Below the pieces are notes generated by a model. The model was not told where the DNA came from. It did no database searches and saw only the letters and a program-made list of their open reading frames with translations. Shown here piece after piece: positions 12,218 through 39,825 of a stretch of 64,000 nt of DNA (its first letter is position 1; every line of letters begins with the position of its first letter). Source of the DNA: a virus. The position numbers and the translations under genes are program-made. The stretch lies in the IMG/VR virus record IMGVR_UViG_3300045974_000462, positions 2,974-66,973 of that record. One strand, 5' to 3'.

Positions 12218-13573
12218 CTATATCCCGGCTCTTCTGTTTCGCTCCTCACGCTCCTTGGCTTGCGCGGCACGTTCGTCTGGCAGCGTGTCGTGTTCGCCTC
12301 TCTGGTAGACCTTGACCTCGTTGTTCGGCGAGTATGAGGACCATGCGGATTGTTCAAAATCTCCACCGACTCGCTGCTTGATGTCGTAGTGGTCCCTGTT
12401 AAACTTGATGTGCCGCTGCTCCGGTTCGTACTTGTCCTCGTTGGTGGTGATCTGGACTCTCGGCTTTCCTCCCGGCCATGCCTGGACGTAGACTCCGGCG
12501 TCGTGCATGCCGTATTCCTTCGCCACTTCGACCAGCTTGGTGGCGATCTCGTGCGCCTTGGCGTGCTGGTTCTTCCGAGCGCTCGCCAGTATTGTGTCGT
12601 AGTTTTTGGTATTCCTTGCGGTCGCGTCGGCGTCGTATCGCTCGGTTAGTCCATTCTGTTGGCCTCTTCCCCATGCGTTCGATAGGTCTCCGCTATGGTG
12701 CGGGTTCTTGTTTGCTCCGTGGCCGAGTATCCCGGCTCGTGTCCCGTTGGCCCATGCTTCGTCTTTGGTGGTGGCTACCGCAGCGGGTACTGGTTTCGGT
12801 GCTGGCGCTGTGGTAGGCATGACCGCGAGCGTTACCCAGACGTCTCCGCCTTTGGTGCTGCTTCCCCTCGGAGTCTTGAAAACTTTTGATGTGGTGTTTT
12901 TGCCGGACCCGGTGACGCGGATGTCGTATCCCTGCTCGGCAAACCAGTTGTGCATATCTCCATCGGGGCTCCATCGTTTTTTCAGGCTGTCATGCCTGTC
13001 GTTTCCTCCGTAGTAGTAGCTGTCATAAACCGTCAGGTTTCCCCCTGGGTCGACGGCGGTCCTACCGTTACCTCCGGCTTCGGTGTATCCGAAGTCTGAG
13101 GAGCGGAGCGCTGCTTGGACGGCGAGTGCCGACCTCTTGTCCGGCTTGACGAAGGCTGGCGTCGGTGAGGGCTCTGGCGTCGGCATGGGAGTAGGGTCTG
13201 GTACCGGGTCGGAGTATTTCGGTGGATGTGCCGTCCACTTCATCTCCCCTTTCTGGTGGCCTTCCAGCATCTCGATCTCGTGGAAGTGTCCGCCGTGCAT
13301 GTTCTCCGTGCGACCGGTGTGGCGGGCAGCGTCGCCGTTGATAAAGACCGTTGTTCCCTTCGGTCTGGCGAGCGGGACGTCCGGTGGCCTCGGGTTCTTC
13401 GCGGCGATAATGCTGCTGGTCCCGCTGCGATTGGTCCGGGTGTATCCGACGTGGTGGGGGTCGGCATTTCCGAAGAGGTCAAGTTGCGCCGGGTTGTGTG
13501 CCGCTCTCGCCTTCAGGAGTGCGACCGTGATGGCAGCGGCGTGGGATATGGCCTTCTGGAGTTGGTCGATCAT
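12218..13573 (-). CDS. Tagged putative internal head protein, 451 aa
   Basis: N-tag QLQKAISHAAAITVALLKA..QLDLFG..HHVGYTRTNRSGTSSI; Pro-rich linkers. Confidence 0.8.
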   Translation of the reverse strand: MIDQLQKAISHAAAITVALLKARAAHNPAQLDLFGNADPHHVGYTRTNRSGTSSIIAAKNPRPPDVPLARPKGTTVFINGDAARHTGRTENMHGGHFHEIEMLEGHQKGEMKWTAHPPKYSDPVPDPTPMPTPEPSPTPAFVKPDKRSALAVQAALRSSDFGYTEAGGNGRTAVDPGGNLTVYDSYYYGGNDRHDSLKKRWSPDGDMHNWFAEQGYDIRVTGSGKNTTSKVFKTPRGSSTKGGDVWVTLAVMPTTAPAPKPVPAAVATTKDEAWANGTRAGILGHGANKNPHHSGDLSNAWGRGQQNGLTERYDADATARNTKNYDTILASARKNQHAKAHEIATKLVEVAKEYGMHDAGVYVQAWPGGKPRVQITTNEDKYEPEQRHIKFNRDHYDIKQRVGGDFEQSAWSSYSPNNEVKVYQRGEHDTLPDERAAQAKEREERNRRAGI

Positions 13574-13597
13574 GGCTTATGGCTCCTCGTACCACGG

Positions 13598-14008
13598 TTA
13601 TTTGTTATTCCTGCGGGTTTCGATGTATTTAGTGCCGTGGTTTTCGCTGATTTCGTCGCGGGTATGCTGTTCTTTCCAATCCATGATGATCTTCTGGTTG
13701 TTTTCAAGCGTGCGCAGTTTCTCTATGACGACCTTGTGTTCTCCGTCGTAGAGCCCGACCTTCTCGTTGATGCTGTCGAGTTTGCCGTTTATCCCGTTGC
13801 CCATCATGACAATTATGGCGACTCCTGCCGCGAAAATCAGACCGTTAGATTTCATCCAGAATTTGTTGGTCTTCAGGGTGCTGATGGTGTCCATGTGATC
13901 TCTGCAGGCCGGGTGACTTGAGACTACATCATCTCCGTGCTCGTAGTTGTAATCGTTGAGGCCATTAGCATTGTCGTTATCGGATTTCCTGCGGTTGTGT
14001 GGCTCCAT
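13598..14008 (-). CDS. Single-TM membrane protein with coiled coil
   Basis: RRKSD N-terminus, TM LIFAAGVAIIVMM, GGAG RBS. Confidence 0.7.
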   Translation of the reverse strand: MEPHNRRKSDNDNANGLNDYNYEHGDDVVSSHPACRDHMDTISTLKTNKFWMKSNGLIFAAGVAIIVMMGNGINGKLDSINEKVGLYDGEHKVVIEKLRTLENNQKIIMDWKEQHTRDEISENHGTKYIETRRNNK

Positions 14009-14025
14009 GTTCGTATCTCCTCTTG

Positions 14026-14538
14026 CTATAGAATAACGGGTTTCCCCGGTGTGGCTTGTATTTTGGCTTTGAATTCCTGAAATGGTACGGTTTTGATGGT
14101 CCCGAAGAATCGCGGGTTATCGTAGTGCTTGTGGAATGCGGAGCGGGCCTCGGCGCTGCTCTGCATCCCCAGAAAGACCTTTTGCTCATCGATGCTCTTG
14201 AAGTCTGGCGCTTGCATGATGGTCACCACGTAGACGTTCGGGGCTTCCCGCCAAGGTCCGACAAAAACGTCTAGTTCGTCGCCGTCCATGCCGGTGACTC
14301 CCCTGATGTATCCGTAGGGTATGTGCATCCGGTGGGTGCCGCTGGTCCCGTCGTGCGGGTTGTGCCAGATTCGGTTCCGGCTGCGACCGACCTCGATGCT
14401 GACCGGGATGCCGTTGAAGTCGAGGCGTCCGTCGAGGGTCTTTGGCTGCACCAGCTTGGTGTCCATGCCGTGGCGGTCGACCTCGGCGGCGGCTCGGAGT
14501 TGTGCCTCGGTGAAAAGTGCCTTGACGAGCAGCTTCAT
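14026..14538 (-). CDS. Tagged inorganic pyrophosphatase-like protein (polyvalent-protein InPase family)
   Basis: MKLLVKA start, ATGA-coupled; PYGYIRGVTGMDGDELDVFVGP...DEQKVFLG. Confidence 0.8.
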   Translation of the reverse strand: MKLLVKALFTEAQLRAAAEVDRHGMDTKLVQPKTLDGRLDFNGIPVSIEVGRSRNRIWHNPHDGTSGTHRMHIPYGYIRGVTGMDGDELDVFVGPWREAPNVYVVTIMQAPDFKSIDEQKVFLGMQSSAEARSAFHKHYDNPRFFGTIKTVPFQEFKAKIQATPGKPVIL

Positions 14539-15047
14539 CGCCTTTGCCGTTTCCCGCCTGCTGACTGTGGATGCGCCTCGTGCTCGACAAGGTCGCGCTG
14601 ACCGTAGACGTCGGCGTAATGGTCGACCGTCCATTTGTCGAGGTGCGCGGCGCTGGCAAACGTCTTGCGCCATCGCTCCGGCTTGAGTCGGCTTCCCTCT
14701 CGTGTGCCGTGTGCCTCGATCCCGTAGTGGTCGTGGGGTATCGCTGGCGCTACCGTCCGGCTGATCTCATCGTACTCGTCATCGTTCAGCAGTCCCTCGT
14801 CGCGGGCGGCGTCGAGTTCCGGGCGGGTCACGTTGCTCCCGATATCGTGCCAGTTCTTCCGGGCGTGGTACTCGTCGTCGTTGAAGAGCCCATCCCTGTG
14901 TGCCTGCTCCAGCTCGCCTCGTGACAGGTTCGTCGGCGTCACCTTGTTGTCGTATTCGCGGCGGGTGACGGCGGTTCCTCTGGCGGTGGTGTAGTTGCTG
15001 CCGTGGACGTGGCTTTTGACCAGCAGGTACAGTCCGTTGCGTTTCAT
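14535..15047 (-). CDS. Tagged putative internal head protein with duplicated helical motif
   Basis: AGGAG RBS; YLLVKSHVHGSNYTTARGTAVTRREYDNK; ELxxAxxDGLxNDDEY occurs twice. Confidence 0.75.
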   Translation of the reverse strand: MKRNGLYLLVKSHVHGSNYTTARGTAVTRREYDNKVTPTNLSRGELEQAHRDGLFNDDEYHARKNWHDIGSNVTRPELDAARDEGLLNDDEYDEISRTVAPAIPHDHYGIEAHGTREGSRLKPERWRKTFASAAHLDKWTVDHYADVYGQRDLVEHEAHPQSAGGKRQRR

Positions 15048-17731
15048 CGTGGGGTCTCCTTGCGGCGTGGGTCCGGCAGGCGTAGCGACCTGAAAAGTGA
15101 GCCTTGAGCCCATCCGGCCCGGTCCGGCTTCTCGGTGAGCCCGGACGCGGCCAGTTCCTTGGTGTCGATATGGCGACCGGCTGCGAGTTCGGCTTTCTGT
15201 CGGGCTCGTGTTCGGGCGCTCAGTCCGTCCTCGATCTGGGCCTTGTCGGTCAGGTATGCATGGACTTGTGCCTCGGCCTCGACTACTTTCTGTCGGGTCG
15301 GCTCGTCCAGCTTGTTCCAGTGGGGCAGGTGTTCAAAGCGGTAGTGGCGGAGTTTGTGGAGGTCGTAGTGGTTGTTGGCGTGGGCGAGTTTATTCCCGTA
15401 TGACCGGACGCGGCTATCCTCGTGCTGCCTGACGAGGGTGACCGCTCCGGACGGGATGTTGCGGTAGAATTCGTGGACTAGGGCTTTCTTAAGTCCTAGT
15501 TTGGTGAGAATCCTTCCGGCAATGCTCCGGGGTCCGGCTCCTTGCTCTTTGGTACTGCGGTCTTGGGTTTTAGGGTAGTAGTCTTGGCCGGTGCAGGTTT
15601 CCCCGCTGGAGCAGGTACCGGTGCGGGTGTCGGGGCGTTGGCAGCATCCTGGAGCGCCATCTGCTTTTCGGAGATAGCTATGGCGTCCATGAGGATGCTG
15701 CGTTTCTTCGCGTAAAGTTCTTTCTGCTTCTGTTCGTCGGCCATATGTGCCTCCTGATTTGATAAGTTGCGTCAGGTATCTTACCGATTTTTCAGCGTTA
15801 TCGCTACTCTTTAATTTCGCAAACGCTCCGGTGACTACCTGCTTCTTGTCCTTTGGCTGGTATGGCGTAGCGAAGAAGTCCTCTTGATCGACTTCCTTGG
15901 TGCGGTTGACGATCTCGTTGTGTATGGCCTGCGCGATGGACCCGAGCATGGTGCCGAGTTTGTCGGCGCTCCCGACGTGCTTCTCGATGGCCAGTGCAAA
16001 TTCCTTACCGTAGTCCGTGGCGAATCCCTGTTGATTGCGGTCCGTTCCGTCTCCTCCCAGACCCATGTCGCTCTGTTGAAACATTTGGGAGATGGTGCTG
16101 TTGCCGTTGCGGGCCCGGATGACGTTGCGTATGGCCTCTGTCATGTCAGGTATCACGTTGAATTCGTCGTTTCCATGAAGTTTGGCAAAATGGCCGACTG
16201 CGTTATTGAGCCCACCGATGATCCGCTTCATCCCGCTGTTGGCGCTCTCGGCCATCTGCTTGATCAGTGGTAAGTCTTGATAAATTTTGGCGAAAATTGC
16301 GGACTGTATCCGTTCTGCGCATTGCTTGTTCGGGGTGCCGTTTTCGTCTACGAGACCATCGGCCTCGTTGCGGCCTATCTTCGCAAAAAATCCCTGAATG
16401 AAGGGCAGGCTCGATTGCGCTTCAACATCAAATTCCCCGTCTTCGTTCGGGTTGAATTTGGCGAGCAGGGCGTCGTCTATCCGTCCTCCGTCCACGACTG
16501 CCTGTTGCGTCGGGCTCTCCTTTTTCTGCATTGGTACGTTGGCCTCGTGGGCGAAATTGGCGCGGTTGACTCCCTCCTGTGGCTCCCTGACCCGGACGAT
16601 CATCGGCATCTTCATGCCTTCGGCGGCTGCGGGGTCGATCCCGAATTCCTGCTGTGCGTTCTCGGTGATCCAGTCCTTGTATTCCTTCGCCTTGTCAGGG
16701 TTGGTCTCGTAGGCCATTTTGATTGCCAGAGACCGACCGTTTCCGCTCTCGACCATTCCGTCCTTGCCGACTATGGGCGATCCGTCTGACGCGAGCGGGT
16801 TCTTGCCAAATAACTCAGGCTCCAGCTTGTTCGCCAGTTTGACAATCTGCATCCGGCTGGCGACAGACGATCGGTCTCGGGGCTGGAGTTCGCTCGGGTA
16901 GTCGGTGTTTTCCGCTCCCTCTGCGCTGTGGCTGGTGGTCAAGCTGTCGCCGTCGACGAGGGCGTACTGCACCGGGTACTTCCCGAGGGTGTGGGTGATC
17001 GCGTTGGCCTTGTGTCCGAAGACGAACGTGGGCGCGGCTTTCTTTCCAGAGGAGAACTGCTCCTTCTTTCGCTCCGTCAGGTCGACGGCTCCCTTGATTT
17101 TGCGGTCCGGGTCGCCTCCTGCGGCCTCGACGGTTCCGTCCTTGCCGAGAATAACTTGGTGGCCGTTCTTCTCCATGACCGTGTGTTGTTCGGAGTCGTC
17201 GGCCTCGTGTCCGAAGTGCTTTAGGAGTTTCGTGCGATAGTCGTCTTCGGCCTGGGTATACAGGTTGCTCCGCGAGGTCTTGAATGCCTTTAGGTGGGCG
17301 ACGGGGTCGTCTCCTCCTGTCGCTGTGTGCATTGCCTTTATCTTGGTATTGGAGGTTTTGCGGGCGTCGTTGGTCTTGTTACGCTCCGTCTCGGGATAAA
17401 GGTTTGACTCAAAGTCTGGCCGGTCCTTGGCTTTACCTTCCGGGAGGTCTTTGTTGCGCTTGATGGCTGACTGCTCGCGCTTCTGCCATCCGGAGTCGGT
17501 CAGGTGCTGGAGGAGTTCGGCGTGGTGCGCCAGCTTATTGCCGGGGGAGACTTCTTCGCCGTGGCGGCGCTCGTGGGCGACGAGGTCAGGGTGCTTTATC
17601 ACCTTATTGTCGTGCTCCCTGACCAGAGTCCCGTCTTGACGGGTGTACTGGTGGATATGGCTTTTGGTCAGGGAATCAAAAAAAAAAGGTGCTTCCCCTG
17701 AAGCGGGCCTCCATTTGTCACGGCTACCCAT
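15044..17731 (-). CDS. Large tagged protein with DdrB-like ParB domain; start uncertain, possibly a frameshift fusion to the upstream sigma-like gene
   Basis: LTKSHIHQYTRQDGTLVREHDNK tag; YALVDGDSLTTSH...ELQPRDRS...DGSPIVGKDGMVESGNGRSLA; second tag LKKALVHEFYRNIPSGAVTLVRQHEDSR. Confidence 0.75.
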   Translation of the reverse strand: MGSRDKWRPASGEAPFFFDSLTKSHIHQYTRQDGTLVREHDNKVIKHPDLVAHERRHGEEVSPGNKLAHHAELLQHLTDSGWQKREQSAIKRNKDLPEGKAKDRPDFESNLYPETERNKTNDARKTSNTKIKAMHTATGGDDPVAHLKAFKTSRSNLYTQAEDDYRTKLLKHFGHEADDSEQHTVMEKNGHQVILGKDGTVEAAGGDPDRKIKGAVDLTERKKEQFSSGKKAAPTFVFGHKANAITHTLGKYPVQYALVDGDSLTTSHSAEGAENTDYPSELQPRDRSSVASRMQIVKLANKLEPELFGKNPLASDGSPIVGKDGMVESGNGRSLAIKMAYETNPDKAKEYKDWITENAQQEFGIDPAAAEGMKMPMIVRVREPQEGVNRANFAHEANVPMQKKESPTQQAVVDGGRIDDALLAKFNPNEDGEFDVEAQSSLPFIQGFFAKIGRNEADGLVDENGTPNKQCAERIQSAIFAKIYQDLPLIKQMAESANSGMKRIIGGLNNAVGHFAKLHGNDEFNVIPDMTEAIRNVIRARNGNSTISQMFQQSDMGLGGDGTDRNQQGFATDYGKEFALAIEKHVGSADKLGTMLGSIAQAIHNEIVNRTKEVDQEDFFATPYQPKDKKQVVTGAFAKLKSSDNAEKSVRYLTQLIKSGGTYGRRTEAERTLREETQHPHGRHSYLRKADGAPGCCQRPDTRTGTCSSGETCTGQDYYPKTQDRSTKEQGAGPRSIAGRILTKLGLKKALVHEFYRNIPSGAVTLVRQHEDSRVRSYGNKLAHANNHYDLHKLRHYRFEHLPHWNKLDEPTRQKVVEAEAQVHAYLTDKAQIEDGLSARTRARQKAELAAGRHIDTKELAASGLTEKPDRAGWAQGSLFRSLRLPDPRRKETPR
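15496..15744 (-). CDS. 82-aa Pro/Ala/Lys-rich ORF nested out of frame in the DdrB-like ORF
   Basis: Strong AGGAGG RBS; MADEQKQKELY... Confidence 0.5.
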   Translation of the reverse strand: MADEQKQKELYAKKRSILMDAIAISEKQMALQDAANAPTPAPVPAPAGKPAPAKTTTLKPKTAVPKSKEPDPGALPEGFSPN

Positions 17732-19029: not shown

Positions 19030-19071
19030 GGGGGGTGTCCTCCGTGGGTGCGTGTGTAGGTTATTGCTCAG

Positions 19072-19099
19072 ACTATATCGGAATGTTTCTTGTGCTCAA
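19072..19099 (-). promoter_or_regulatory. Sigma70-like promoter for the sigma-like gene, back-to-back with cassette 6
   Basis: TTGAGC-16-TATAGT on the minus strand. Confidence 0.4.
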
Positions 19100-19116
19100 A
19101 CTTTTTTGTCATTCTG

Positions 19117-19190
19117 GGTGGTGCGACCGTTCTGCGGGATCTTCTACTCTCTGAGGGGTTTCCCCTCTATCTGCTTTTGGAGGTGTTGTC
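19117..19190 (+). promoter_or_regulatory. Promoter cassette copy 6
   Basis: TGCGAC(19122)-17-TACTCT, GAGGGG-TTT-CCCCTC hairpin, RBS. Confidence 0.8.
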
Positions 19191-19385
19191 ATGGCACAGA
19201 AATTCGTGGCTGTCAGTTTCACTTTTGCTCTCCCTGGTTACTGGTTAGTGAAACCTGACGGAGAGAACGTGTACTCGTATCGCGGCGAAGAGTTGACCGA
19301 GGCTGGTCGGGCGCTGGCTCACCAGTTTCCTTGTAACTGCGACAAACCGTTACTTCCGCATCATCTCGTGGGGGTGGCGTCATGA
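19191..19385 (+). CDS. Hypothetical protein
   Basis: 64 aa after cassette 6. Confidence 0.65.
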   Translation: MAQKFVAVSFTFALPGYWLVKPDGENVYSYRGEELTEAGRALAHQFPCNCDKPLLPHHLVGVAS

Positions 19386-19884: not shown

Positions 19885-19930
19885 GTCAATCGGGAGGCTT
19901 CGGTCTCCCCTTCTTTCTGGGGGTGTTATT

Positions 19931-21070: not shown

Positions 21071-21073
21071 AAT

Positions 21074-33125: not shown

Positions 33126-34321
33126 CCGTGCGCTCCTGCTATGTACTCTCTCACTGGACTACAGCCACACCAAGGGTGCAATGGGCCTGCTGTCGCTTTA
33201 AGTGTTTCTTGGCCGTCCGGTCTTTCTGTTGAGTGTACCTTTCCGCTCCGTGTCGGCATCGGCTTGCGTCCTATGTTATTACCGTTCAATATTAAATCTT
33301 TAAGCCTGAACAGTCTAGGAGTTTGTCCGTCTGCTTCTAACAGTAAATGCTTGCATTGGGCGCAGGCTGTTGGCAGCGGTCTCCTGAAAACTAAGGCGTC
33401 CGGTCCGATGATTCGCATGAGTTCGTGGGCGTGGCCTTGCTTCGTTGCGCTGTTTATTTCAAAAAAAGCCACTCGCTGCCAGTCCCTCGCCTTGTCGTCC
33501 ATCGCGTGGTAAAGTTCGGAGGATAGCTGCTGCCAGTTCGTGATCGGCAGGTCCAGTATCTCCTCGCCGAGTTCCTGCTTCTCTTCCCGGTCAAGGACGC
33601 GGCGGGTCAGGGTCCGCTGGTGGTAGTCGACTGCCATCTGGCGGACGGTGTCGGCCTGCCGTTGAGCCCACTTCTGTCCGACCTCGGTCGCGATGTCATT
33701 GCCGAAGTTCTGAATGTAGAGCCCGGTCTCCCTCTCCGCGACCGCTATGGCGTCGAGGTCCGGCTTCAGTAGCGGCATCTCCTTGCTCAACCGGAGGACG
33801 TCGTGGTATGTCTCCCCTCGCTCGACGGCGTCCCAGAGTCGGCCAAAAATAAACGCGTTCCGGATCAGGTAGGCGTCGGGTCCGGCGACGATCTCCGCAA
33901 AGTTCAGCGGCGTGGTCTCCGGGGGGCATAGTCCCATGTCCTTCCATCGCTGGAGCGTCGGATCGTCCGGCTGGTAGTCCGTCTGCATCTGGCCTGCCAT
34001 GAAGTCGAAGCGGTCCTTGATGGTCTGGAGGACGTCGCGGATCTGGCTGGCGGTCAGGATCACCGACTTCCGCAGGTGGCGACCGGTGCCGACTATCTGG
34101 CGGAGGTCGTCCATTGCTTCCCGGTATCGCTGCTGAAACTGGTAGAAAAGACCGGCGACGGCAGGCTCGCGGGGCTCCTTCGGTTCGTCGTCGCAGGCGC
34201 AGGCTTTGAGGAGTTGACCGGCGACGTCCGGTCCGATGCCGCTGGCGTCAGCGAGTCGGGCGAGTGCCTTGGTCAACTCCTCGGGGCTCAGGTTGTGGTG
34301 TATCGATGCCTTCATGGTCAC
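33095..34321 (-). CDS. MuF/SPP1 gp7-like minor head protein
   Basis: RDWQRVAFFEI, ACAQCKHL, GPLHPWCGC signature. Confidence 0.8.
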   Translation of the reverse strand: MTMKASIHHNLSPEELTKALARLADASGIGPDVAGQLLKACACDDEPKEPREPAVAGLFYQFQQRYREAMDDLRQIVGTGRHLRKSVILTASQIRDVLQTIKDRFDFMAGQMQTDYQPDDPTLQRWKDMGLCPPETTPLNFAEIVAGPDAYLIRNAFIFGRLWDAVERGETYHDVLRLSKEMPLLKPDLDAIAVAERETGLYIQNFGNDIATEVGQKWAQRQADTVRQMAVDYHQRTLTRRVLDREEKQELGEEILDLPITNWQQLSSELYHAMDDKARDWQRVAFFEINSATKQGHAHELMRIIGPDALVFRRPLPTACAQCKHLLLEADGQTPRLFRLKDLILNGNNIGRKPMPTRSGKVHSTERPDGQETLKATAGPLHPWCGCSPVREYIAGAHGWEPTQPVTT

Positions 34322-35397
34322 CTTCTTGCTTGGTGTCGGTGCTGGTTGACCTTCGTTCCGTGGTACTCGTGCTCTTTCTCCAGTCCCTCGTCCTCGGCCA
34401 TCATCCCTGCTTCCTCGTGTGCCGATTCCGCATCCTTATGGTGACCGATCTGCCCGGTCCTGTTCGCCTTGGTAGATAGGGCGTCAGCGGATTTTCTGGC
34501 CGACTGGTATTCCGGTGATCCTGTCTGGCCTTCCTGCTTCGCGATATCCTTTCCGAGCGAGGCGTCCGCCTTGGCCTGATGCTCCTTGGCTTTGACCTTG
34601 TGATCCGCTTCGCCTTCGGAGTCGTAGTCAAGGTGCGCGGCGATGGAGTGCAGGCGGCTGGCCTTTTCGTGGTCGTCCTTTGACCCACTCTTGTTCGCCT
34701 TGGCGCTGGCGGAGTAGGCTTCGTCGCGGGCTTTTGTGGATATCCTGGTGATCCGCTGGACCTCGGCTCCGTGCTCCAGTGCCATCTTGCGGTGGTGTTG
34801 TGCGTGTGTTACCGCTGCGTCAGCCATGTGCTCCGGTCCATCATTGGCGAGTTCCTTGGCGTGATGTTCTGCTCGTTGGTGCTGTTCCATTGCGAGCAGG
34901 TGCATCCCGCTGGCTCTGTTGAGATCCTGTGAGTTATCGAGTTTTTTGTGGCTGGCGTTGTATGCGTGACTGGTCAGGTTGTCTGCGGCAATAGTGGCAC
35001 TGTTGGAATTCTGCACCAGTTTTCCGTCCCTGGCGTAGTTGTGCAGGGACGCGATCGCGCCAAGGTGGCGGCTGGCGGCATGGAGGTGGTTCGATATGTC
35101 ACTGTTGTCTGTTGCCATGTTTGCGGCTTCGACGTGGGAGAATGCGGCGTGGTGGTGCTGTCCTGCTGCTCCCCTTATCTCCTTGCTCGGGGCGTCTCCA
35201 CTGAAAGCGTGGCGGCTGGCGCGGTCGGCGTTTACGGATGCTTCTTGCGATGATTTCCGCTTGTCGTCATAGGCGCGGACCTGGGAGACGGCTCCGGATG
35301 CCGAGTGGCGCTCGTGCTCTTTAACGTGGCTCTTGGCGAGGTTGGCGGAGGCGAATCCCGCGAGGGCAATGGCTTTGACTAGGCTGTCGGTGTTCAT
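34318..35397 (-). CDS. Tagged His/Ala-rich repeat protein
   Basis: LVKAIALAGFASANLAKSHVKEHERHSASGAVSQVRAYDDKR; HxxAxxxHxxA repeats. Confidence 0.8.
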   Translation of the reverse strand: MNTDSLVKAIALAGFASANLAKSHVKEHERHSASGAVSQVRAYDDKRKSSQEASVNADRASRHAFSGDAPSKEIRGAAGQHHHAAFSHVEAANMATDNSDISNHLHAASRHLGAIASLHNYARDGKLVQNSNSATIAADNLTSHAYNASHKKLDNSQDLNRASGMHLLAMEQHQRAEHHAKELANDGPEHMADAAVTHAQHHRKMALEHGAEVQRITRISTKARDEAYSASAKANKSGSKDDHEKASRLHSIAAHLDYDSEGEADHKVKAKEHQAKADASLGKDIAKQEGQTGSPEYQSARKSADALSTKANRTGQIGHHKDAESAHEEAGMMAEDEGLEKEHEYHGTKVNQHRHQARR

Positions 35398-35399
35398 GG

Positions 35400-35855
35400 T
35401 TATCTCCTGTACTTGGTGTTGGCGTGTCGCATCGCATGGTCGTCATGGTGGTCGATCATGTCCTCCATTGCGTCTCTGTCTTCGCCGTGGACATTTTGCA
35501 GGTCGTCCCTGAATGCTTCGGAGGCGTGCGCGTGTATTTTGGACGCGGCGTGGTGCGCTTCTTCCTTGCGTTGCCGGATGGCGTTGTCTGTTGCCTTGTC
35601 GGCCATTTCGCTCATGTTGCCGGAATGGTCCCGCTCGCCGTCCTTGTTGGACTCCATCCGGTCGATGTGCTGGAGTGCTGCGTGGTTGTTGCCTGCGTTG
35701 AGGCAGGCGTTAGCGGCTCTCCGGCTGTCCTCGTATTCCTTGCGGTTGACCGTGGTCCCGCTGGCGTTGGTGTAGGTGGTAGCCTTTACGTGGCTCTTGA
35801 TCAAGCTGGCGGTGGCGCGGGCGGCGTGGTCGATGGCTTTCTGCAGGTCGTTCAT
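35400..35855 (-). CDS. Tagged small His-rich protein
   Basis: DLQKAIDHAARATASLIKSHVKATTYTNASGTTVNRKEYEDSRR. Confidence 0.8.
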   Translation of the reverse strand: MNDLQKAIDHAARATASLIKSHVKATTYTNASGTTVNRKEYEDSRRAANACLNAGNNHAALQHIDRMESNKDGERDHSGNMSEMADKATDNAIRQRKEEAHHAASKIHAHASEAFRDDLQNVHGEDRDAMEDMIDHHDDHAMRHANTKYRR

Positions 35856-35867: not shown

Positions 35868-37067
35868 TTATCGGGGGATCATGTCGTCGGAGACGAAGAA
35901 TATGGTGGTTGGTTCGATGGACGAGTCTTCGATGCGGATGCCGCTCCCGGCGATCTCGTCCATAAGTCCGGGGGCTATTCGTTGGAAGGCTTCCCGCTGC
36001 CGCTGTATGGTGAGCCCGGTCATGGTGGGGCGTCCGCCAATGGAGAGCGCTTCTCCCCTTCCGCCTCGCTCGGCTTTGTAGCCAATGGTGACCATGTTGT
36101 GGTCGTGGCGGACGGTCAGTTGCAGGGGCTCCGTCGATCCGTTCCCGGCTATGAAGGCAAGGGTACCGTATTCCCGCTTGACGATGTCCGCTATCAGTCC
36201 CTTCGGGTCGCCGAGGTGGCGCTGGCCGAGGCTGGTCATTTCGTCAGCCAGATTGGCTCCGGCTCGCTCGGATTCCTCGTTGGCGTTGTGGTATGCGGAG
36301 TCTAGGCAGTCATCGCAAAACTGACCGTAGAAGGTGTCGCCTGCGTTGTCTGCGTCGCTGGCGGTCCTGACCGGGGCGTCGGCTCCGCAGTGCTCGCATT
36401 GCCCGTCTTCGGTCTCGAATTCGTTGTAGTCGAAGTTCCCGTCATTGATGAGGCGGGTCATGGTTGCGAGTTTCGTCTCGCCTCCGTCGTTCACCAGTCC
36501 CTGCCATCGCGGGTTGGTCTTATTGCCAAACTTCGCGATCTCCTTCGGTCCGTGGAGTTCGTACTTTTCCGTGCGCGAGTTGGGGTTCAAGCGGTGGATG
36601 AAGACTCCGCCTTCTTTGCCGGGGAGCAGTTCGTCTCCTGGCTTCATGTTCCTCTTCGCGGTCCCGGCTGACTTGTATGGCTGCATCCCCTTGGCGGCGA
36701 TCTGGCTGACCGCTCCCGATTGCGTCCTGCGGGAGTAGGCGGTGTGGTGAAATGCTGCCTTTTCCCGGTGGTATTCGGCCTCGTTGTGCTGGCCTGCGGA
36801 GACCGCGAGGTCTGCGGCCTTCTGGTGAAGGTCTCGGGCTCGCTTGTGCTCCTCTGCCGGTCGTTCTCCCCTGCGGCCTGTTGCCACCAGCAGATCGCTT
36901 GCCTCTTGCGCGATGTTGCTGGCGTCCTTGGCGGCGCGACCTATTGAGTGGTTCGGGCTATGGATGCTGTCGGTCGGGAATTCAAACCCGAGTTGCGTGC
37001 TTTTCTTCAGCAGTTCGACCGCCGCGTCCGCTGCCTGCTGGATCGCTTTGTTCAGTTCTTCGCTCAT
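35868..37067 (-). CDS. Tagged putative internal head protein with CxxC Zn module
   Basis: ELNKAIQQAADAAVELLKKSTQLGFEF...HHTAYSRRTQSG; CEHC..CDDC. Confidence 0.8.
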   Translation of the reverse strand: MSEELNKAIQQAADAAVELLKKSTQLGFEFPTDSIHSPNHSIGRAAKDASNIAQEASDLLVATGRRGERPAEEHKRARDLHQKAADLAVSAGQHNEAEYHREKAAFHHTAYSRRTQSGAVSQIAAKGMQPYKSAGTAKRNMKPGDELLPGKEGGVFIHRLNPNSRTEKYELHGPKEIAKFGNKTNPRWQGLVNDGGETKLATMTRLINDGNFDYNEFETEDGQCEHCGADAPVRTASDADNAGDTFYGQFCDDCLDSAYHNANEESERAGANLADEMTSLGQRHLGDPKGLIADIVKREYGTLAFIAGNGSTEPLQLTVRHDHNMVTIGYKAERGGRGEALSIGGRPTMTGLTIQRQREAFQRIAPGLMDEIAGSGIRIEDSSIEPTTIFFVSDDMIPR

Positions 37068-37157: not shown

Positions 37158-37463
37158 TTAACAGACCGATCCTGCCGGTTGCTGGTCGAGGCCATTGTCG
37201 TATGGCAGGTCCGGGTCGTCTTCGATGTCCACAAACGTGACGTCTGTCTCCGGGCTCTGCTTCAGGTTCATGGCGGCGCAGTGTAAGTCCGAGGGTGCAG
37301 CGTTGTTGCCGATAAGGTGTCCGAAGGCTCCGTATGCCGTGGCGAGCCAGTCGCGGGCGATGTCGGCTCCGGGTCCGGTGATCTCAAACGGTCCGAGTCG
37401 GTTCCATTGCTGGTGGGTATGGACGATCGCTTTTCCTGCGGGGGTGGCGACGGTTATGGTCAT
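37158..37463 (-). CDS. Untagged hypothetical protein, possible immunity/partner
   Basis: ATGA-coupled to the zincin gene; AYGAFGHLIG..PSDLH. Confidence 0.7.
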   Translation of the reverse strand: MTITVATPAGKAIVHTHQQWNRLGPFEITGPGADIARDWLATAYGAFGHLIGNNAAPSDLHCAAMNLKQSPETDVTFVDIEDDPDLPYDNGLDQQPAGSVC

Positions 37464-38662
37464 TTGCGGCTCCTCGTTTTCTTGGGTTTTTTAACCGGCT
37501 TGGTCTGGATGTAGTGGATCATCCCGAGCATGAAGTGGAAGTGTTCCGGGTCGTCTTGGGCGAAGCGGGTCAAACCGTAGCGCGAGGAGAATTGCTGCAT
37601 CCCCATCGAGACGACCTCGCTGTAATGCCTGCCATAATCCTTGCCGACGTATGGGCTCACAAAATTGTCTACCCATGCCGACTCGCCATCCTTGTAATTG
37701 CTGCCGGGGACCAGTTCCTTCAGCGGCTTCAGTTCGATATTGTTTCTGCCGGTGGTCGCCTTGTAGTGACGACGGCAGCGGTCGATTACGAAATCGCAGG
37801 ATGCCTCAGTGATCTCCGGGTGGCTCATCTCGATGTGGTGTCCCATCTCGTGCATGATGGTATTGTCGGCTGTTCTCCGGTTCATGGTAAACCATCCAGC
37901 AGGGTTGGCACTGGCTCGCTCGCCTTCGACAAGGTCGTCCTTGATGAATTTGAGGGTCGGAGTCTTGTCGGTGCCGATGATTTGGTAAAACTTTGTGATG
38001 GCTTGTTCCTGGTTGCTGTCGAGGCCGATCATCATGTCTTTGGTCAGTTGGTCCTTGGCGTCTGCGGCCTCGTAGAATGGCGTCTGTTCCTGCAGGTGCT
38101 TCAGTATGCTGTGGTAGGAGTTGTTTATCTCTTGCTCGACTCTGATCCGTGATGCGGCAGATAGTCGCTCTCTCATGTCCAGTTCGTCGTTGGCGGCGGT
38201 TATTATCCGGTGCGATGCTCCCTTGTCGTACAGTTTTGTAACCTTGGCCTTTGCCGACTCGTAGTCCTTCTTGAATGCCTCATAGGCGTCGAGTGCCGCT
38301 GCGACCTTTGGTGCCATGAATTCCAGCACGGCTTTGCCGTTGTTGACGAGGATCTTGTGCTTGGGCTCCGCGAGTTTGGTCGGCCTTCCGCTCGTTGCGT
38401 CTCGCATCCACTTGGCTGTCGGCAGCGGCGTCAGCTTGAGTTCCGTTATGGTCTTGGGCTTCGGCGGTGGAGGGGGTGGAGGGGGTGGAGGCAGCGGTCG
38501 GGAGAAGTCGAGACCGAGTTGGTGAGCGTGCGGGTTGCCGCGTTGTGCTATCCGGCTGGCGGTGCCTCTCTGGTTGGTCCGGGTGTAGCTGATATGGTTC
38601 GGTCGGCTGGTCCCGAAGTTAAACCCGAGTTGCTCGCTCTTGAGCAGAAGGTAGCGGATCAT
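37460..38662 (-). CDS. Tagged zincin metallopeptidase (MPTase-like)
   Basis: MIRYLLLKSEQLGFNF tag; HEMGH, SPYVGK, SEVVSMG. Confidence 0.85.
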   Translation of the reverse strand: MIRYLLLKSEQLGFNFGTSRPNHISYTRTNQRGTASRIAQRGNPHAHQLGLDFSRPLPPPPPPPPPPKPKTITELKLTPLPTAKWMRDATSGRPTKLAEPKHKILVNNGKAVLEFMAPKVAAALDAYEAFKKDYESAKAKVTKLYDKGASHRIITAANDELDMRERLSAASRIRVEQEINNSYHSILKHLQEQTPFYEAADAKDQLTKDMMIGLDSNQEQAITKFYQIIGTDKTPTLKFIKDDLVEGERASANPAGWFTMNRRTADNTIMHEMGHHIEMSHPEITEASCDFVIDRCRRHYKATTGRNNIELKPLKELVPGSNYKDGESAWVDNFVSPYVGKDYGRHYSEVVSMGMQQFSSRYGLTRFAQDDPEHFHFMLGMIHYIQTKPVKKPKKTRSRK

Positions 38663-38673
38663 GGTGGCCTCTG

Positions 38674-39825
38674 TCAGTATCGGTTGCGCCGGGGTGGTGG
38701 GGCGTCCGGTTTGTTCTTGAGGTGGTGGAGCATCCCGATTATGAAGTGGGCGTGTTCCGGGTCTTTGTCGAGCAGTTTGATAAAGTCGTTATGTTTGCCG
38801 AGGTGCTGCATCCCCATCGAGACGACCTCAGTGCTGCCGTCTGAGTAAAACTTGCCGACGTATGGGCTGACGAATTTGTCCGTCATGGCTCGCTCGTCGG
38901 CATCGTACCTGCTGCCGGGGACTATCTCCTTTAGCGGTTTCAGGCTGGTGCTGCCTCCCTTGCGCTCGCACTTGCTGTACCTGAATTGCGCGGCGGCTCG
39001 CTCGACCTCGGGGTGGGAGAATTCTATGTGGTGCGCTATCTCGTGGATGACCGTGGTGCGGTTGGCCTTCTCGTCCAGCTTGATGTATCCGGTAGGGCTA
39101 GCGCAGGCTCTAAAGTCTTTACCCATGCTCTCGGTCCATCGGTATGTGGGCGTCTTTCCGGTACCGACCATCGCGTAAAAGTCGCCGATGGCCTTCTGCT
39201 GCTCCCTGTTCTTCAGTCCTCCGCCTGTGACCTCTTTCGCCTTCGTGCGGCATCGCTCTATGTCGTTGCCTTCCTGCAGCCATGCGATGACCTTTTCGTA
39301 CTCGTCTTTTCCGGAGTCGCGCTGTGCTTTGAGGTGATCGTCCAGCATTCGGTCGTGTTCCATGCTAAGTCGCTTGACCTCAGGATGTGCCGCCAGGATG
39401 TCCTGGTATCCGGTGTGGTCGGGGTGCTCCTTCGCTGCTTCCTTGTATGCCGTGGAGTACCTCAGGTATGCGTCGTGTCGCTCCTGCTTCAGCTTATCCT
39501 TGTGTGCTTGGCGGTCCTTGGCGGTCCGGCCACCAGTAAGCAGTTCCAGTATGTTTCTGCCGTTGTCGATGAATCCCTGAAAGCTGGAATCCTCGCGGAC
39601 CACGTCGGCGATAGTCTTCTGCTTCGGTGGCGGCGGTGGCGCTGGCCGGGAGAAGTCGAGGCCGAGTTGCTGTGGCTTCGGCGCTCCCCTCTGGGCGACA
39701 ATGGAGACCGTGCCTCGGGAGTTGACGCGGCGGTATCCGACGTGGTGCGGGTTCGGGTTGGTACCTCCGGTGCCGAAGTCGAAGAGTCCCGGTTGCGTGC
39801 TCTTGATGAGCAGAAAGCGGATCAT
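38674..39825 (-). CDS. Tagged zincin metallopeptidase, paralogue of the previous gene
   Basis: MIRFLLIKSTQPGLFDF tag; HEIAH, SPYVGK, TEVVSMG. Confidence 0.85.
   Translation of the reverse strand: MIRFLLIKSTQPGLFDFGTGGTNPNPHHVGYRRVNSRGTVSIVAQRGAPKPQQLGLDFSRPAPPPPPKQKTIADVVREDSSFQGFIDNGRNILELLTGGRTAKDRQAHKDKLKQERHDAYLRYSTAYKEAAKEHPDHTGYQDILAAHPEVKRLSMEHDRMLDDHLKAQRDSGKDEYEKVIAWLQEGNDIERCRTKAKEVTGGGLKNREQQKAIGDFYAMVGTGKTPTYRWTESMGKDFRACASPTGYIKLDEKANRTTVIHEIAHHIEFSHPEVERAAAQFRYSKCERKGGSTSLKPLKEIVPGSRYDADERAMTDKFVSPYVGKFYSDGSTEVVSMGMQHLGKHNDFIKLLDKDPEHAHFIIGMLHHLKNKPDAPPPRRNRY

What the first reader, a model, noticed from the sequence alone, without database searches (positions are those of the whole stretch)
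12218..39825. Addressed virion-cargo array: ~13 genes share a modular N-terminal tag fused to unrelated effectors
Seen: genes at 13573, 14538, 15047, 17731, 19029, 29756, 31075, 32262, 35397, 35855, 37067, 38662 and 39825 begin with variants of (L-x-KA-helix)-L-L/I/V-K-S/A/K. Most then carry H-V/I-x-x-Y/H-x-R-x3-4-(S)G-x-V-x-V...Y/H-D/E-D/N-x-R. Parts are near-identical in DNA (ttcagcagctcgaccgctgctcc near 29705 and 31015, similar near 37010). C-termini differ: sigma-like, DdrB-ParB, InPase, ART plus BECR nuclease, two zincins, His-rich helices. All lie between portal and prohead protease. Known: prohead proteases cleave capsid-targeting propeptides (T4 CTS, phiKZ head proteins), and polyvalent proteins deliver these same effector families. 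Inference: this is a polyvalent protein split into separately addressed modules, packaged through the tag, trimmed at K/S-A and injected. The constant tag could also act as a recombination handle for swapping effectors.
Basis: partly seen in the sequence, partly recalled or inferred. Interest (0 to 1): 0.9.

Follow-up and report, generated by a model that had tools for sequence, protein, structure and literature searches.

The report
Shared leader tag on phage-head cargo
An uncultured pond phage puts one conserved peptide in front of a dozen unrelated enzymes encoded between its portal and head-protease genes; the same peptide joins the domains of giant multi-enzyme proteins in hundreds of other uncultured phages, so it is probably the joint where head-loaded, injected proteins are cut apart, and I found no published description of it.

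Summary
Twelve minus-strand ORFs between portal (39828-41573) and prohead protease (6778-7695) carry 13 copies of a composite peptide. It has an optional amphipathic leader helix, a cut-site-like L-h-K|S/A, sometimes a Q-L-x-L-F linker, and a basic beta-hairpin (H-V-x-x-Y/H-x-R-x3-S-G-x-V-x-x-V). Nothing else in the 69-kb genome matches it. Once the tag is removed, only the two zincins resemble each other.

A profile of the tag finds 278 protein clusters elsewhere. Half of the copies are internal, sitting between ddrB-ParB, InPase, ART-PolyVal, SNF2 and LPD1 domains of true polyvalent proteins. Close relatives in IMG/VR have the same modules fused that are separate genes here.

The L-h-K|S/A motif also occurs at the major capsid protein N-terminus and in the conserved portal N-terminal region. 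It is enriched in scaffold proteins of five phages. This points to the prohead protease as the cutter, but that is inferred, not shown.

Packaging, cleavage and injection are untested, and which part is the "address" is unresolved. Earlier notes of this scan describe similar junction tags on other DNA. I rate it a new variant of T4-CTS-like or P1-Dar-like cargo loading, applied to polyvalent-protein modules.

The parts
39828..41573 (-). Portal protein; its N-terminal region holds a conserved L-V-K|A-E-A motif near residue 39.
   Evidence: PHROG 12 portal, E 7.5e-15. Homologues at E about 1e-220 in 13 IMG/VR loci all keep L-[IVN]-K-[SA] at this place.
38674..39825 (-). Tagged zincin 1. Order: short leader M-I-R-F-L-L-I-K|S, Q-x-G-L-F-D-F linker, type-2 hairpin, poly-Pro, HExxH metallopeptidase domain.
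   Evidence: tag 55 bits. PHROG 20397 at E 1.2e-17 and minor head protein PHROG 19443. tblastn matches C-termini of phage minor head proteins.
37460..38662 (-). Tagged zincin 2, a paralogue of zincin 1 (32% identity), with the same short leader and type-2 hairpin.
   Evidence: E 1.3e-48 to zincin 1.
35868..37067 (-). Tagged protein with a split type-2 tag. Leader helix, L-L-K-K|S and Q-L-G-F-E-F occupy residues 1-31. The hairpin lies at residues 105-127, after a His-rich helical insert. The C-terminus is Cys-rich and of unknown function.
   Evidence: A helix-only profile built from other phages hits the leader at E 3e-5.
35400..35855 (-). Small tagged protein: leader helix, L-I-K|S, type-1 hairpin, then His-rich helices.
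   Evidence: (50.6 bits).
34318..35397 (-). Tagged protein: leader helix, L-A-K|S, type-1 hairpin, then long His-rich helical repeats.
   Evidence: AF2 of this tag with 41 homologues gives helix 3-19 and hairpin 28-31/37-40, pLDDT 78. Homologous modules lie fused in L012 and L020.
33095..34321 (-). MuF-like minor head protein. It has a leader-like helix (L-T-K-A ... L-L-K|A) but no hairpin, and an H-P-W-C-G-C motif near its end.
   Evidence: Language-model neighbours at 0.94; 83 of the 100 nearest clusters share the best hit's family set, PF04233 Phage_Mu_F. Pfam itself is silent. Homologues in L005, L008 and L012 continue into tag plus cargo.
32247..33125 (-). Untagged low-GC gene (TnsA-like nuclease plus HTH), probably a mobile insertion between the MuF-like gene and the next tagged gene. 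Not part of the cargo set.
   Evidence: Pfam Tn7_TnsA-like_N at E 1e-6 and HTH_23. GC3 is 0.54, against about 0.72 in neighbouring genes.
31072..32262 (-). Tagged protein: short leader M-R-L-L-I-K|S, type-1 hairpin, an unverified ART-like middle and a PBECR-like C-terminal domain.
   Evidence: Structural neighbours of residues 253-395 are PBECR1/2/3 clusters, TM 0.6-0.77 by row.
30062..31075 (-). Tagged protein with the full type-2 tag: helix, L-L-K-K|S, E-Q-L-S-L-F, hairpin. Cargo unknown.
   Evidence: 57 bits. AF2 with 23 homologues gives helix 2-21, a flexible linker and hairpin 39-43/49-53.
29106..29756 (-). Tagged protein with a split type-2 tag: leader ending L-L-K-K-G, hairpin at residues 85-106, then His-rich helices.
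   Evidence: A 27-nt stretch is identical to the leader of the 31075 gene (D6).
17668..19029 (-). Sigma-factor-like protein with short leader M-L-L-M-V-K|S and a diverged type-2-like hairpin.
   Evidence: Sigma70_r4, E 0.0095, below cut-off; 0.91; all ten best neighbours are sigma families; tag not recovered by leave-one-out. Homologous modules in relatives start with G-H-[VI]-A-F-x-R-x-N/S-x-S-G.
17678..17687 (-). T10 run. A -1 shift here joins the sigma-like ORF in frame to F-F-F-D-S-L-T-K|S-H-I-H, the tag of the DdrB-ParB ORF.
   Evidence: The ATG at 17731 has no SD. The run and frame relation are unchanged in the source-sample contig and in a roughly 90%-identical relative from another study. 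Relatives are fused (L004, L028, L009, L020) or cleanly split (L026).
15044..17731 (-). 895-aa composite ORF. Order: type-1 (D-G-T variant) tag, ddrB-ParB domain, L-I-K|S site, an odd ~75-aa stretch overlapped by a separate 82-aa ORF (15496-15744), a second tag at residues 742-777, and a C-terminal module.
   Evidence: Pfam ddrB-ParB at E 1.7e-32. Two tag copies score 39.5 and 42.3 bits. The same order tag, ddrB-ParB, tag, module is seen in P0002, P0007, P0013 and L026.
14535..15047 (-). Tagged protein: leader ending L-L-V-K|S, type-1 hairpin, then two SHOCT-like repeats.
   Evidence: (DUF1707, weak). Its C-terminal part lies fused inside 660-700-aa proteins in L007 and L010.
14026..14538 (-). 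InPase (polyvalent-protein type pyrophosphatase) with only the short leader M-K-L-L-V-K|A and no hairpin.
   Evidence: Pfam PF18823 at E 6.8e-27. In L013/L022 and in the polyvalent proteins of L017, L018, L023 and L024 the InPase is followed by a tag and further modules.
12218..13573 (-). Tagged protein with the full type-2 tag: helix, L-L-K|A, Q-L-D-L-F, hairpin. Cargo unknown.
   Evidence: Its module 119-258 lies fused with other modules in L003, L008 and L010.
6778..7695 (-). Prohead maturation protease, the candidate cutter. It is itself rich in h-h-K|S/A.
   Evidence: PHROG 1028 at E 5.6e-37. 9 of its 22 Lys are followed by S/A, p 0.0014.
6138..6800 (-). Scaffold-like protein with eight K-S/A sites, most in the form L-x-K|S/A.
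   Evidence: 8 of 14 Lys are followed by S/A, p 0.004. Homologues in L013 and L021 give p 0.005 and 0.0001. Scaffolds of Mecenats66 and Touem01 give p 0.0005 and 0.003.
4663..6093 (-). Major capsid protein. Residues 9-12 are L-L-K|S, which would leave an 11-residue propeptide.
   Evidence: PHROG 752 at E 5.8e-38. N-termini of three close homologues (L013, L011, L021) and a distant one (L024) were read: L013, L021 and L024 keep h-h-K|S/A near the N-terminus and L011 does not. Mecenats66 and Touem01 have M-M-K|S and L-Q-K|S at residues 28-31.

Best explanation
This is the head-cargo gene set of an uncultured pond phage. Each cargo module starts with a composite maturation tag. The tag has four parts:
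- an optional amphipathic leader helix (L-x-K-A-I...)
- a site L-h-K|S/A
- in 'type 2' tags, a flexible Q-L-x-L-F linker
- a basic two-stranded beta-hairpin that stays on the module.

Shown:
- The tag is real, is confined to this array, and is fused to unrelated cargo.
- It is the same element that joins the domains of fused polyvalent proteins in hundreds of other uncultured phages.
- Those phages include close relatives whose fused chains contain the modules that are separate genes here.

Inferred:
- The proteins enter the prohead during assembly, either as chains hanging on a MuF-like head protein or singly.
- The prohead protease, which appears to cut the capsid protein, portal and scaffold after Lys before Ser/Ala, cuts every joint.
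- Each module then lies free in the head with the hairpin at its new N-terminus.
- The modules leave with the DNA and act early. They include a sigma-like factor, a DdrB-type ParB nuclease, a pyrophosphatase, a PBECR RNase-like domain and zincins.

Fused and split gene layouts would then give the same mature products, which would explain why both occur. Which part is the loading signal (leader helix or hairpin) is open. The hairpin is the only part common to all copies.
For: Tag specificity:
- The profile hits only the array in the whole genome.
- Leave-one-out recovers 12 of 13 copies.
- Cargo parts are unrelated except the zincin pair.

Generality:
- 278 cluster representatives match at E<=1e-3, and 46 at E<=1e-10.
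- In the best 150 proteins there are 248 copies, 125 in the first 70 residues and 123 internal, with up to 5 per protein.
- The carriers hold ddrB-ParB, LPD1, SNF2, InPase and ART-PolyVal, with tags lying between the domains.
- Inter-tag modules fall into 84 BLAST clusters.

Relatives:
- 28 IMG/VR loci carry the tag.
- 13 of them also have a portal at E about 1e-187 to 1e-224, with tagged genes directly downstream.
- The same modules occur fused or split.

Cut site:
- L-h-K|S/A occurs at the capsid protein N-terminus, in the conserved portal N-terminal region and in scaffolds.
- Lys followed by S/A is enriched in five scaffolds (p 0.004, 0.005, 0.0001, 0.0005, 0.003) and in the protease (p 0.0014). 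It is not enriched in terminase, methylase or helicase.
- P1' is S in 58% and A in 41% of 153 type-1 sites; K at P1 and H at P2' were fixed by the pattern that picked these sites, so they are no test of conservation.

Fold: AF2 on two alignments gives helix, flexible linker and beta-hairpin, pLDDT 77-78.

Context: the array lies between portal and protease/scaffold/capsid genes. Precedents for N-terminal head-loading signals are the T4 CTS and the DarB N-terminal 30 residues in P1 (PMC9024508).
Against: - There are no virion, proteomic or expression data for this phage or any tag-bearing relative. Cleavage, packaging and injection are all inferred.
- The protease-plus-tag complex prediction gave no answer.
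- A four-residue site motif is weak evidence on its own, and one capsid homologue (L011) has L-L-Q-A-A instead of K|S/A.
- Leaders can be as short as M-I-K, so the leader cannot be a general address.
- In two genes the hairpin lies about 80 residues from the site, so it is not simply the primed side of the cleavage site.
- Two tagged zincins could be the processing enzymes instead, as Iyer et al. predicted for polyvalent proteins (PMC5512222).
- In L004 the tagged polyvalent gene has no head gene within the 17 kb held.
- The resemblance of the leader helix to the scaffold N-terminus and the protease C-terminus is by eye only; a helix profile does not reach them (E 2.7-4.7).
Confidence: 0.6

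Rival explanations
1. The joints are cut by the tagged zincin metallopeptidases (37460-38662, 38674-39825), not by the prohead protease. This could happen in the head or after injection, as Iyer et al. proposed for polyvalent proteins in general. The tag would be the zincin's recognition element.
For: Two paralogous HExxH zincins lie directly after the portal. PMC5512222 predicts MPTase-mediated processing of polyvalent proteins.
Against: The same L-h-K|S/A motif sits in the capsid protein, portal and scaffold, which are classic prohead-protease substrates. It also does so in Mecenats66 and Touem01. I did not check whether tag-bearing contigs in general hold a zincin.
Confidence: 0.15
2. The conserved hairpin, and in type-2 tags the Q-L-x-L-F element, work in the infected cell rather than in the head. 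For example, they could tether injected effectors to the host sliding clamp or to nucleic acid. Cleavage would only expose them.
For: Q-L-S-L-F and Q-L-D-L-F match the clamp-binding pentapeptide consensus (own knowledge). Q-[LM]-x-[LF]-[FD] lies behind the site in 37 of 57 type-2 hairpins of database proteins, in a low-confidence flexible linker. The hairpin is basic. No clamp gene was found in the 69-kb record.
Against: No binding test was possible and the host is unknown. Type-1 tags lack the motif. The motif could equally dock on a head protein. This reading does not exclude the main one.
Confidence: 0.15
3. The tag is kept mainly as a DNA-level recombination handle that lets cargo cassettes be swapped between genes and phages.
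For: There is a 27-nt identical stretch between the leaders of the 29756 and 31075 genes, and 77% identity over 92 nt between the 31075 and 37067 genes. Modules are shuffled among relatives with breakpoints at tags.
Against: Most tag copies are only 63-81% identical in DNA. Conservation is at protein level across very diverged phages, including AT-rich ones (L023-L025). Invariant residues (K, H, R, G) argue for a protein function.
Confidence: 0.05
4. This is an ordinary paralogous gene family from tandem duplication, or a chance resemblance.
For: The genes are neighbours, and two of them (the zincins) are true paralogues.
Against: All other cargo parts are unrelated. The tag occurs on 84 module clusters elsewhere. 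Leave-one-out E-values reach 3e-13.
Confidence: 0.02

Closest known systems
Capsid targeting sequence (CTS) of phage T4 internal proteins IPI-III and Alt (Mullaney and Black 1996, as cited in PMC9024508)
   Same: A short N-terminal peptide is shared by otherwise unrelated head-internal, injected proteins. It is removed by the prohead protease at that protease's own consensus site. Genes for such proteins vary between related phages.
   Different: There is no sequence likeness. The T4 site is L/I-x-E, whereas here it is L-h-K|S/A. The T4 CTS is about 10 residues and is wholly removed. Here a conserved 22-residue hairpin stays on the cargo, and the element also serves as an internal joint of multi-domain chains. 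Nothing has been tested experimentally here.
Phage polyvalent proteins (Iyer, Burroughs, Anand, de Souza, Aravind 2017, PMC5512222)
   Same: The effector domain families are the same (ddrB-ParB, InPase, PBECR, zincin MPTase; ART-PolyVal, LPD1 and SNF2 in the relatives). The location in head modules and the predicted packaging and injection also match.
   Different: Here most modules are single genes rather than one chain. The paper proposes MPTase processing and, in the text I searched, does not describe a conserved junction peptide or prohead-protease sites.
Phage P1 Dar system: DarB N-terminal 30-residue packaging signal; DdrB, DarA and Hdf as processed head proteins (PMC9024508, PMC12810830)
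   Same: Several anti-restriction proteins, including a DdrB-type ParB protein, are loaded into the head. An N-terminal signal is sufficient for loading in P1, and some members are proteolytically processed.
   Different: P1 components load in an ordered chain of protein dependencies and share no common tag. There is no similarity to the tag here.
MuF / SPP1 gp7-type minor head proteins with C-terminal toxin or effector domains
   Same: A MuF-like gene lies within the array (33095-34321). In relatives it is fused through the tag to further modules.
   Different: Here the MuF-like protein stands alone, and most cargo is not fused to it.
Propeptides of phiKZ and SPN3US head and ejection proteins cut by the prohead protease (PMC5694885, PMC7411985, PMC10052503)
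   Same: Many head-internal ejection proteins are trimmed by one protease at a simple consensus site.
   Different: The consensus differs (S/A/G-x-E there). No shared modular tag plus hairpin has been described for them.

Membership tests
Phage polyvalent proteins (Iyer et al. 2017) | Carries effector domains typical of the class (ddrB-ParB, InPase, PBECR, MPTase, ART-PolyVal, LPD) | tested here: met
   InPase at E 6.8e-27 and ddrB-ParB at E 1.7e-32, both above Pfam cut-offs. HExxH zincins. PBECR-like by structural neighbours only.
Phage polyvalent proteins (Iyer et al. 2017) | Two or more such domains in one polypeptide | tested here: not met
   Most genes here hold one module. Only the 895-aa ORF has two tag-delimited modules. 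The feature is met in relatives (P0002, P0007, P0018).
Phage polyvalent proteins (Iyer et al. 2017) | Encoded among virion or head genes of a portal-terminase phage | tested here: met
   Terminase, portal, protease, scaffold-like and capsid genes flank the array.
T4-type capsid targeting sequence | Short N-terminal peptide common to unrelated head-internal proteins | tested here: met
   13 copies with unrelated cargo. That the proteins are head-internal is inferred only.
T4-type capsid targeting sequence | Removed by the prohead protease at its consensus site | tested here: inconclusive
   The site motif is shared with capsid, portal and scaffold proteins and is enriched there. There are no cleavage data, and the complex prediction gave no answer.
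T4-type capsid targeting sequence | Sufficient to load a foreign protein into the head | not testable with these tools
   Needs a cultured host, or a prohead assembly system with a tag-reporter fusion.
T4-type capsid targeting sequence | Sequence relationship to the T4 CTS and L/I-x-E sites | tested here: not met
   The site here is L-h-K|S/A. The T4 rule is from own knowledge and the scan's cited papers.
MuF (PF04233) minor head protein | MuF domain detectable | tested here: inconclusive
   Pfam and NCBIfam are silent for 33095-34321. Language-model neighbours score 0.94, mostly Phage_Mu_F clusters, sharing 167 features.
Bacterial sliding-clamp-binding motif (Q-L-[SD]-L-F) | Consensus penta- or hexapeptide in a flexible or terminal segment | tested here: met
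   Q-L-S-L-F (31075 gene) and Q-L-D-L-F (13573 gene), with variants in four more genes. Recurs in 37 of 57 type-2 tags elsewhere. The linker has low pLDDT.
Bacterial sliding-clamp-binding motif (Q-L-[SD]-L-F) | Binds the beta clamp | not testable with these tools

The most novel reading that the evidence does not exclude
The tag is a portable three-function label used by a large, unstudied group of phages. Its leader or hairpin loads any protein into the prohead. The L-h-K|S/A site lets the head protease free it. In type-2 tags the cut exposes an N-terminal sliding-clamp-binding peptide, so that injected effectors are delivered straight to the host replisome. Gene fission and fusion at the tag, and perhaps slippage on the T10 run, let the phage reshuffle its injected arsenal freely.
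Probability: 0.2. Interest if true: 0.8.

Novelty: new variant of a known kind. Interest (0 to 1): 0.62.

Why it matters
If the reading holds, it would answer a question left open since polyvalent proteins were described: how these giant chains are cut into working enzymes. The proposed answer is a defined joint recognised by the head protease, rather than by their own zincins. It would also explain why the same effector modules occur fused in one phage and as separate genes in the next.

It also defines a searchable marker, about 30-60 residues long and absent from Pfam, NCBIfam and PHROGs. The marker flags candidate injected anti-defence or take-over proteins in uncultured phages, many of them with unknown folds. 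In addition it offers a candidate portable tag for loading foreign proteins into phage heads, as the T4 and P1 signals do.

Because the scan has met comparable junction tags with other sequences in other phages, tag-delimited cargo may be a general design of phage heads rather than a curiosity.

Tried and rejected
- **Protease-tag complex.** I ran a prediction of protease residues 1-200 with the tag of the 35855 gene (residues 1-55). It gave no verdict (score 0.00, partner pLDDT about 42). This is not evidence either way.
- **Known families.** Pfam at E up to 1 (tag pieces and head proteins), NCBIfam (one type-1 tag piece and head proteins) and PHROGs (whole tagged proteins) match no family over the tag.
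- **Cultured phages.** tblastn of a five-tag protein against INPHARED hit only its unrelated DUF6496 N-terminus. Mecenats66 and Touem01, the nearest cultured portal relatives at about 27% identity, lack the hairpin tag between portal and protease. They do share the K|S/A pattern.
- **Bacterial genomes.** A pattern scan of 185,579 species genomes found no confirmed copy. The pattern was narrow, so this is weak evidence of absence.
- **Failed search.** The search for related loci with the broad alignment A2 failed for lack of a conserved stretch. The narrower A3 worked.
- **Leader helix as mimic.** I tested whether the leader helix mimics the scaffold N-terminus or the protease C-terminal tail. 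A helix-only profile built from other phages finds the window's leaders (E 5e-6 to 0.004) but not the scaffold, MuF-like protein or protease (E above 2). The idea stays an impression by eye.
- **Self-cleavage.** Cleavage by the Ser after the Lys (N-to-O acyl shift) is rejected, because 41% of sites have Ala there.
- **Paralogous family.** Rejected.
- **ART domain in the 32262 gene.** Not confirmed. Pfam is silent, only one homologue was found, and structural neighbours of the middle part are unnamed.
- **Protease family.** phmmer against PDB gave nothing.

Full report
**What the DNA is.** The window is 64 kb of a 69,374-bp single-contig virus record. IMG/VR classes it as linear and about 79% complete. 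It came from a pond metagenome. On the minus strand lie the following head genes:
- large terminase (49908-51503, PHROG 38, E 4e-124)
- portal (39828-41573)
- prohead protease (6778-7695, PHROG 1028, E 5.6e-37)
- a scaffold-like gene (6138-6800)
- the major capsid protein (4663-6093, PHROG 752, E 5.8e-38).

The nearest cultured phages share only about 25-27% identity in portal and capsid protein.

**The observation.** Most have a good Shine-Dalgarno sequence. Twelve ORFs hold 13 copies of a common peptide (alignment A1). It comes in two forms.
- Type 1 (6 copies): a leader ending in L-h-K-S/A, then H-V/I-x-x-Y/H-x-R-x3-S-G-x-V-x-x-V-x-x-Y/H-D/E-D-x-R.
- Type 2 (7 copies): the leader, then a Q-L-x-L-F-like stretch, then H-H-V-x-Y-x-R-x-N-x-S-G-x-V-S-x-V/I. 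In the 37067 and 29756 genes about 70 residues are inserted before the hairpin.

The InPase gene has only a short leader, M-K-L-L-V-K-A.

A profile of the 13 copies matches nothing else in all six frames of the genome. Profiles built without each copy in turn still find 12 of the 13, at E 3e-13 to 6e-6. The copy on the sigma-like gene is the weak one. With the tags removed, BLASTP finds only the two zincins alike. So this is a modular tag on unrelated cargo, not a paralogous family.

**The cargo.**
- InPase and ddrB-ParB pass Pfam cut-offs.
- The two genes next to the portal have HExxH and match the C-terminal metallopeptidase part of phage minor head proteins.
- The sigma-like reading rests on a sub-threshold region-4 hit and consistent language-model neighbours.
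- The C-terminal half of the 32262 gene resembles PBECR domains in predicted structure. Its ART half is unconfirmed.
- An untagged gene in the array (33095-34321) is probably MuF-like.
- Another untagged gene (32247-33125) is a low-GC TnsA-like/HTH gene, probably a mobile insertion.
- The array is not continuous. A 10-kb plus-strand block with an SNF2 helicase lies between 19100 and 29100.

**The tag elsewhere.** The profile was scored against 1.84 billion cluster representatives. It found 278 proteins at E<=1e-3 and 46 at E<=1e-10.
- In the best 150 there are 248 copies. Of these, 125 lie within the first 70 residues and 123 are internal.
- There are up to five copies per protein, in proteins of up to 2131 residues.
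- The consensus over 153 type-1 sites is L-[LIQ]-K-[SA]-H-[VI]-K-x-[YH]-T-R-x-T-x-S-G-x-V-x-x-V-K-E-H-[DE]-D-[SK]-R-x-K-K.
- The K, the H and the S/A choice were required by the pattern that picked these sites. Within it, S is 58% and A 41%.
- Long carriers are genuine polyvalent proteins with ddrB-ParB, LPD1, SNF2, InPase and ART-PolyVal. The tags lie between the domains. For example, in P0018 ART ends at 530 and a tag starts at 536; InPase ends at 840 and a tag starts at 855.
- The stretches between tags form 84 BLAST clusters, 65 of them singletons.
- No Pfam, NCBIfam or PHROG model matched any stretch carrying the tag.
- The founding paper on polyvalent proteins does not mention such a joint in the passages I searched. 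It proposes processing by zincins.

**Relatives.** A pattern scan of IMG/VR gave 28 loci with the tag.
- Thirteen also carry a portal at E 1e-187 to 1e-224 to the window's. Some carry the capsid protein (to 1e-187), the protease and the MuF-like gene.
- In these loci, tagged genes start directly after the portal.
- The same modules are joined differently from phage to phage:
  - The sigma-like, DdrB-ParB and C-terminal modules are one 1564-aa chain in L004. They are also fused in L028, L009 and L020. In L026 they are two genes, each with its own ribosome-binding site.
  - MuF-like proteins in L005, L008 and L012 run on through a tag into further cargo.
  - InPase is followed by a tag and another module in L013.
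  - Parts of the 13573 and 15047 genes lie in one protein in L010.
- Tags always mark the breakpoints.

**The cut site.** The four residues before the hairpin, L-h-K-S/A, recur in proteins that prohead proteases normally cut.
- Capsid protein: it begins M-E-I-Q-S-Y-D-Q-L-L-K-S. Two of three close homologues and one distant homologue keep h-h-K-S/A near the N-terminus; one (L011) has L-L-Q-A-A.
- Portal: all ten portal homologues shown keep L-[IVN]-K-[SA]-E/V-A about 35-45 residues in.
- Scaffold-like proteins: Lys is followed by Ser/Ala far more often than composition predicts.

| Protein | Lys followed by S/A | p |
|---|---|---|
| Window scaffold-like | 8 of 14 | 0.004 |
| L013 scaffold | 10 of 21 | 0.005 |
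| L021 scaffold | 13 of 23 | 0.0001 |
| Mecenats66 scaffold | 13 of 23 | 0.0005 |
| Touem01 scaffold | 8 of 13 | 0.003 |
| Window protease | 9 of 22 | 0.0014 |
| Terminase | – | 0.9 |
| Methylase | – | 0.17 |
| SNF2 helicase | – | 0.7 |

The capsid proteins of the two cultured phages have M-M-K-S and L-Q-K-S at residues 28-31. The 1371-aa protein between portal and protease of Mecenats66 begins M-K-R-L-M-I-K-A.

I therefore infer that this clade of proteases cuts after Lys before Ser/Ala, and that every tag holds such a site. This is inference. No N-terminal sequence data exist for any of these phages, and the complex prediction gave no answer. Self-cleavage through the Ser is unlikely, because Ala is as acceptable at that position.

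**Shape and parts of the tag.** AlphaFold2 on two alignments predicts an N-terminal helix, a flexible stretch holding the site, and a two-stranded hairpin. The alignments were 42 type-1 and 24 type-2 tags. Mean pLDDT is 77-78, and highest in the helix and hairpin.

A helix-only profile made from other phages finds the window's leaders at E 5e-6 to 0.004, so the helix is a homologous part. It is optional, though. Among N-terminal type-1 copies elsewhere, the Lys lies either at residues 5-9 or at 15-24. Five genes here have leaders of only 6-8 residues.

The hairpin is the one constant part, and it is kept in internal copies too. Its role is open. Possibilities are retention in the head or DNA binding (it is basic), an exit signal, or a docking element for the protease. 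The last is less likely for type 2, where the hairpin is 15-80 residues from the site.

Type-2 tags add Q-L-S-L-F, Q-L-D-L-F or Q-M-x-F-D-F right after the site. This recurs in 37 of 57 type-2 hairpins elsewhere. These peptides fit the bacterial clamp-binding consensus (own knowledge), so cleavage might expose a clamp-binding N-terminus.

**DNA level.** The leaders of the 29756 and 31075 genes share 27 identical bases. Other tag pairs are 63-81% identical over 48-92 nt. This fits one recent exchange plus protein-level conservation. It does not show that the tag exists as a recombination handle.

**Side issue bearing on 'split'.** The sigma-like ORF ends in a T10 run (17678-17687). A -1 shift there continues into the tag of the DdrB-ParB ORF, whose own ATG lacks a ribosome-binding site. 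Contigs of the source sample built by another assembler are identical across 12100-32099. A roughly 90%-identical relative from another study keeps the run and the frame relation. So this is not an obvious assembly error. Slippage could give both separate and fused products, but this is untested.

**Verdict.** The best reading (confidence about 0.6) is a maturation joint for head cargo: a leader, a prohead-protease site and a retained hairpin. This makes fused and split gene layouts equivalent. It works like the T4 capsid-targeting sequence and the P1 Dar loading signals (PMC9024508), but it is unrelated in sequence, keeps a conserved piece on the cargo, and doubles as the inter-domain joint of polyvalent proteins. 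Hence 'new variant of a known kind'.

Earlier notes of this scan describe comparable junction tags in other phages. One has a similar V-x-x-H-x-R-x-D-G hairpin followed by Q-x-[SD]-L-F, and another describes F-x-K-[SAG] sites. Those are unchecked notes, not independent evidence. They do suggest the design is widespread.

Noticed in passing
window 17678-17687 (minus strand): T10 run at the end of the sigma-like ORF. A -1 shift fuses it in frame to the tag of the DdrB-ParB ORF, whose ATG (17731) has no Shine-Dalgarno. The run and frame relation are kept in a roughly 90%-identical relative from another study. Relatives are either fused or cleanly split. Possible programmed slippage.
   Followed up: partly
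window 15496-15744 (minus strand): An 82-aa ORF with a strong Shine-Dalgarno lies in another frame inside the 895-aa ORF, just in front of its internal tag. The long frame stays open across it but reads as odd Cys/Gly/Thr/Arg-rich sequence. This ~75-residue stretch is absent from the homologues in L026 and L004. It may be a small gene inserted at a joint.
   Followed up: partly
window 32247-33125 (minus strand): Low-GC gene with a TnsA-like nuclease domain and an HTH, overlapping both neighbours by 16-30 nt. It sits between the MuF-like gene and the tagged PBECR-like gene. It looks like a mobile endonuclease gene inserted at a module boundary.
   Followed up: partly
window 19100-19166, 21094-21160, 23849-23915, 25774-25840, 26748-26814: Five copies of a 67-nt cassette (core GGTGGTGCGACCATTCTGCGGGATCTT) precede plus-strand genes. 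A common GGAGGTG..ATG start context recurs in the same block, twice just downstream of a cassette copy. Probably a phage-specific promoter or regulatory element of the block that interrupts the cargo array.
   Followed up: no
window 13394-13573, 30905-31075, 36975-37067, 38528-38662, 39676-39825: Sliding-clamp-binding-like peptides (Q-L-S-L-F, Q-L-D-L-F, Q-L-G-F-E/N-F, Q-Q-L-G-L-D-F) lie directly after the putative cut site of type-2 tags. They are conserved in 37 of 57 type-2 tags of other phages. No clamp gene was found in the record.
   Followed up: partly
L001 (Morganella phage Mecenats66) 17905-22020 and 9754-10497: The 1371-aa 'helicase' between portal and prohead protease of this cultured phage begins M-K-R-L-M-I-K-A, like the short leaders here. 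Its NUDIX hydrolase has a weak tag-like N-terminus (L-M-A-K-A-I-I-S-G-Y-R-R-A-D-G-T-V-V). This could be a cultured entry point for experiments.
   Followed up: partly
window 23793-23834: Three and a half tandem copies of a 12-nt unit (CCTTCTCCTACT) lie at the end of the SNF2 helicase gene region.
   Followed up: no
window 1-4000: GC content drops from about 0.58 to 0.44. A 1427-aa minus-strand ORF runs off the window start. It may be a horizontally acquired tail fibre or similar gene.
   Followed up: no
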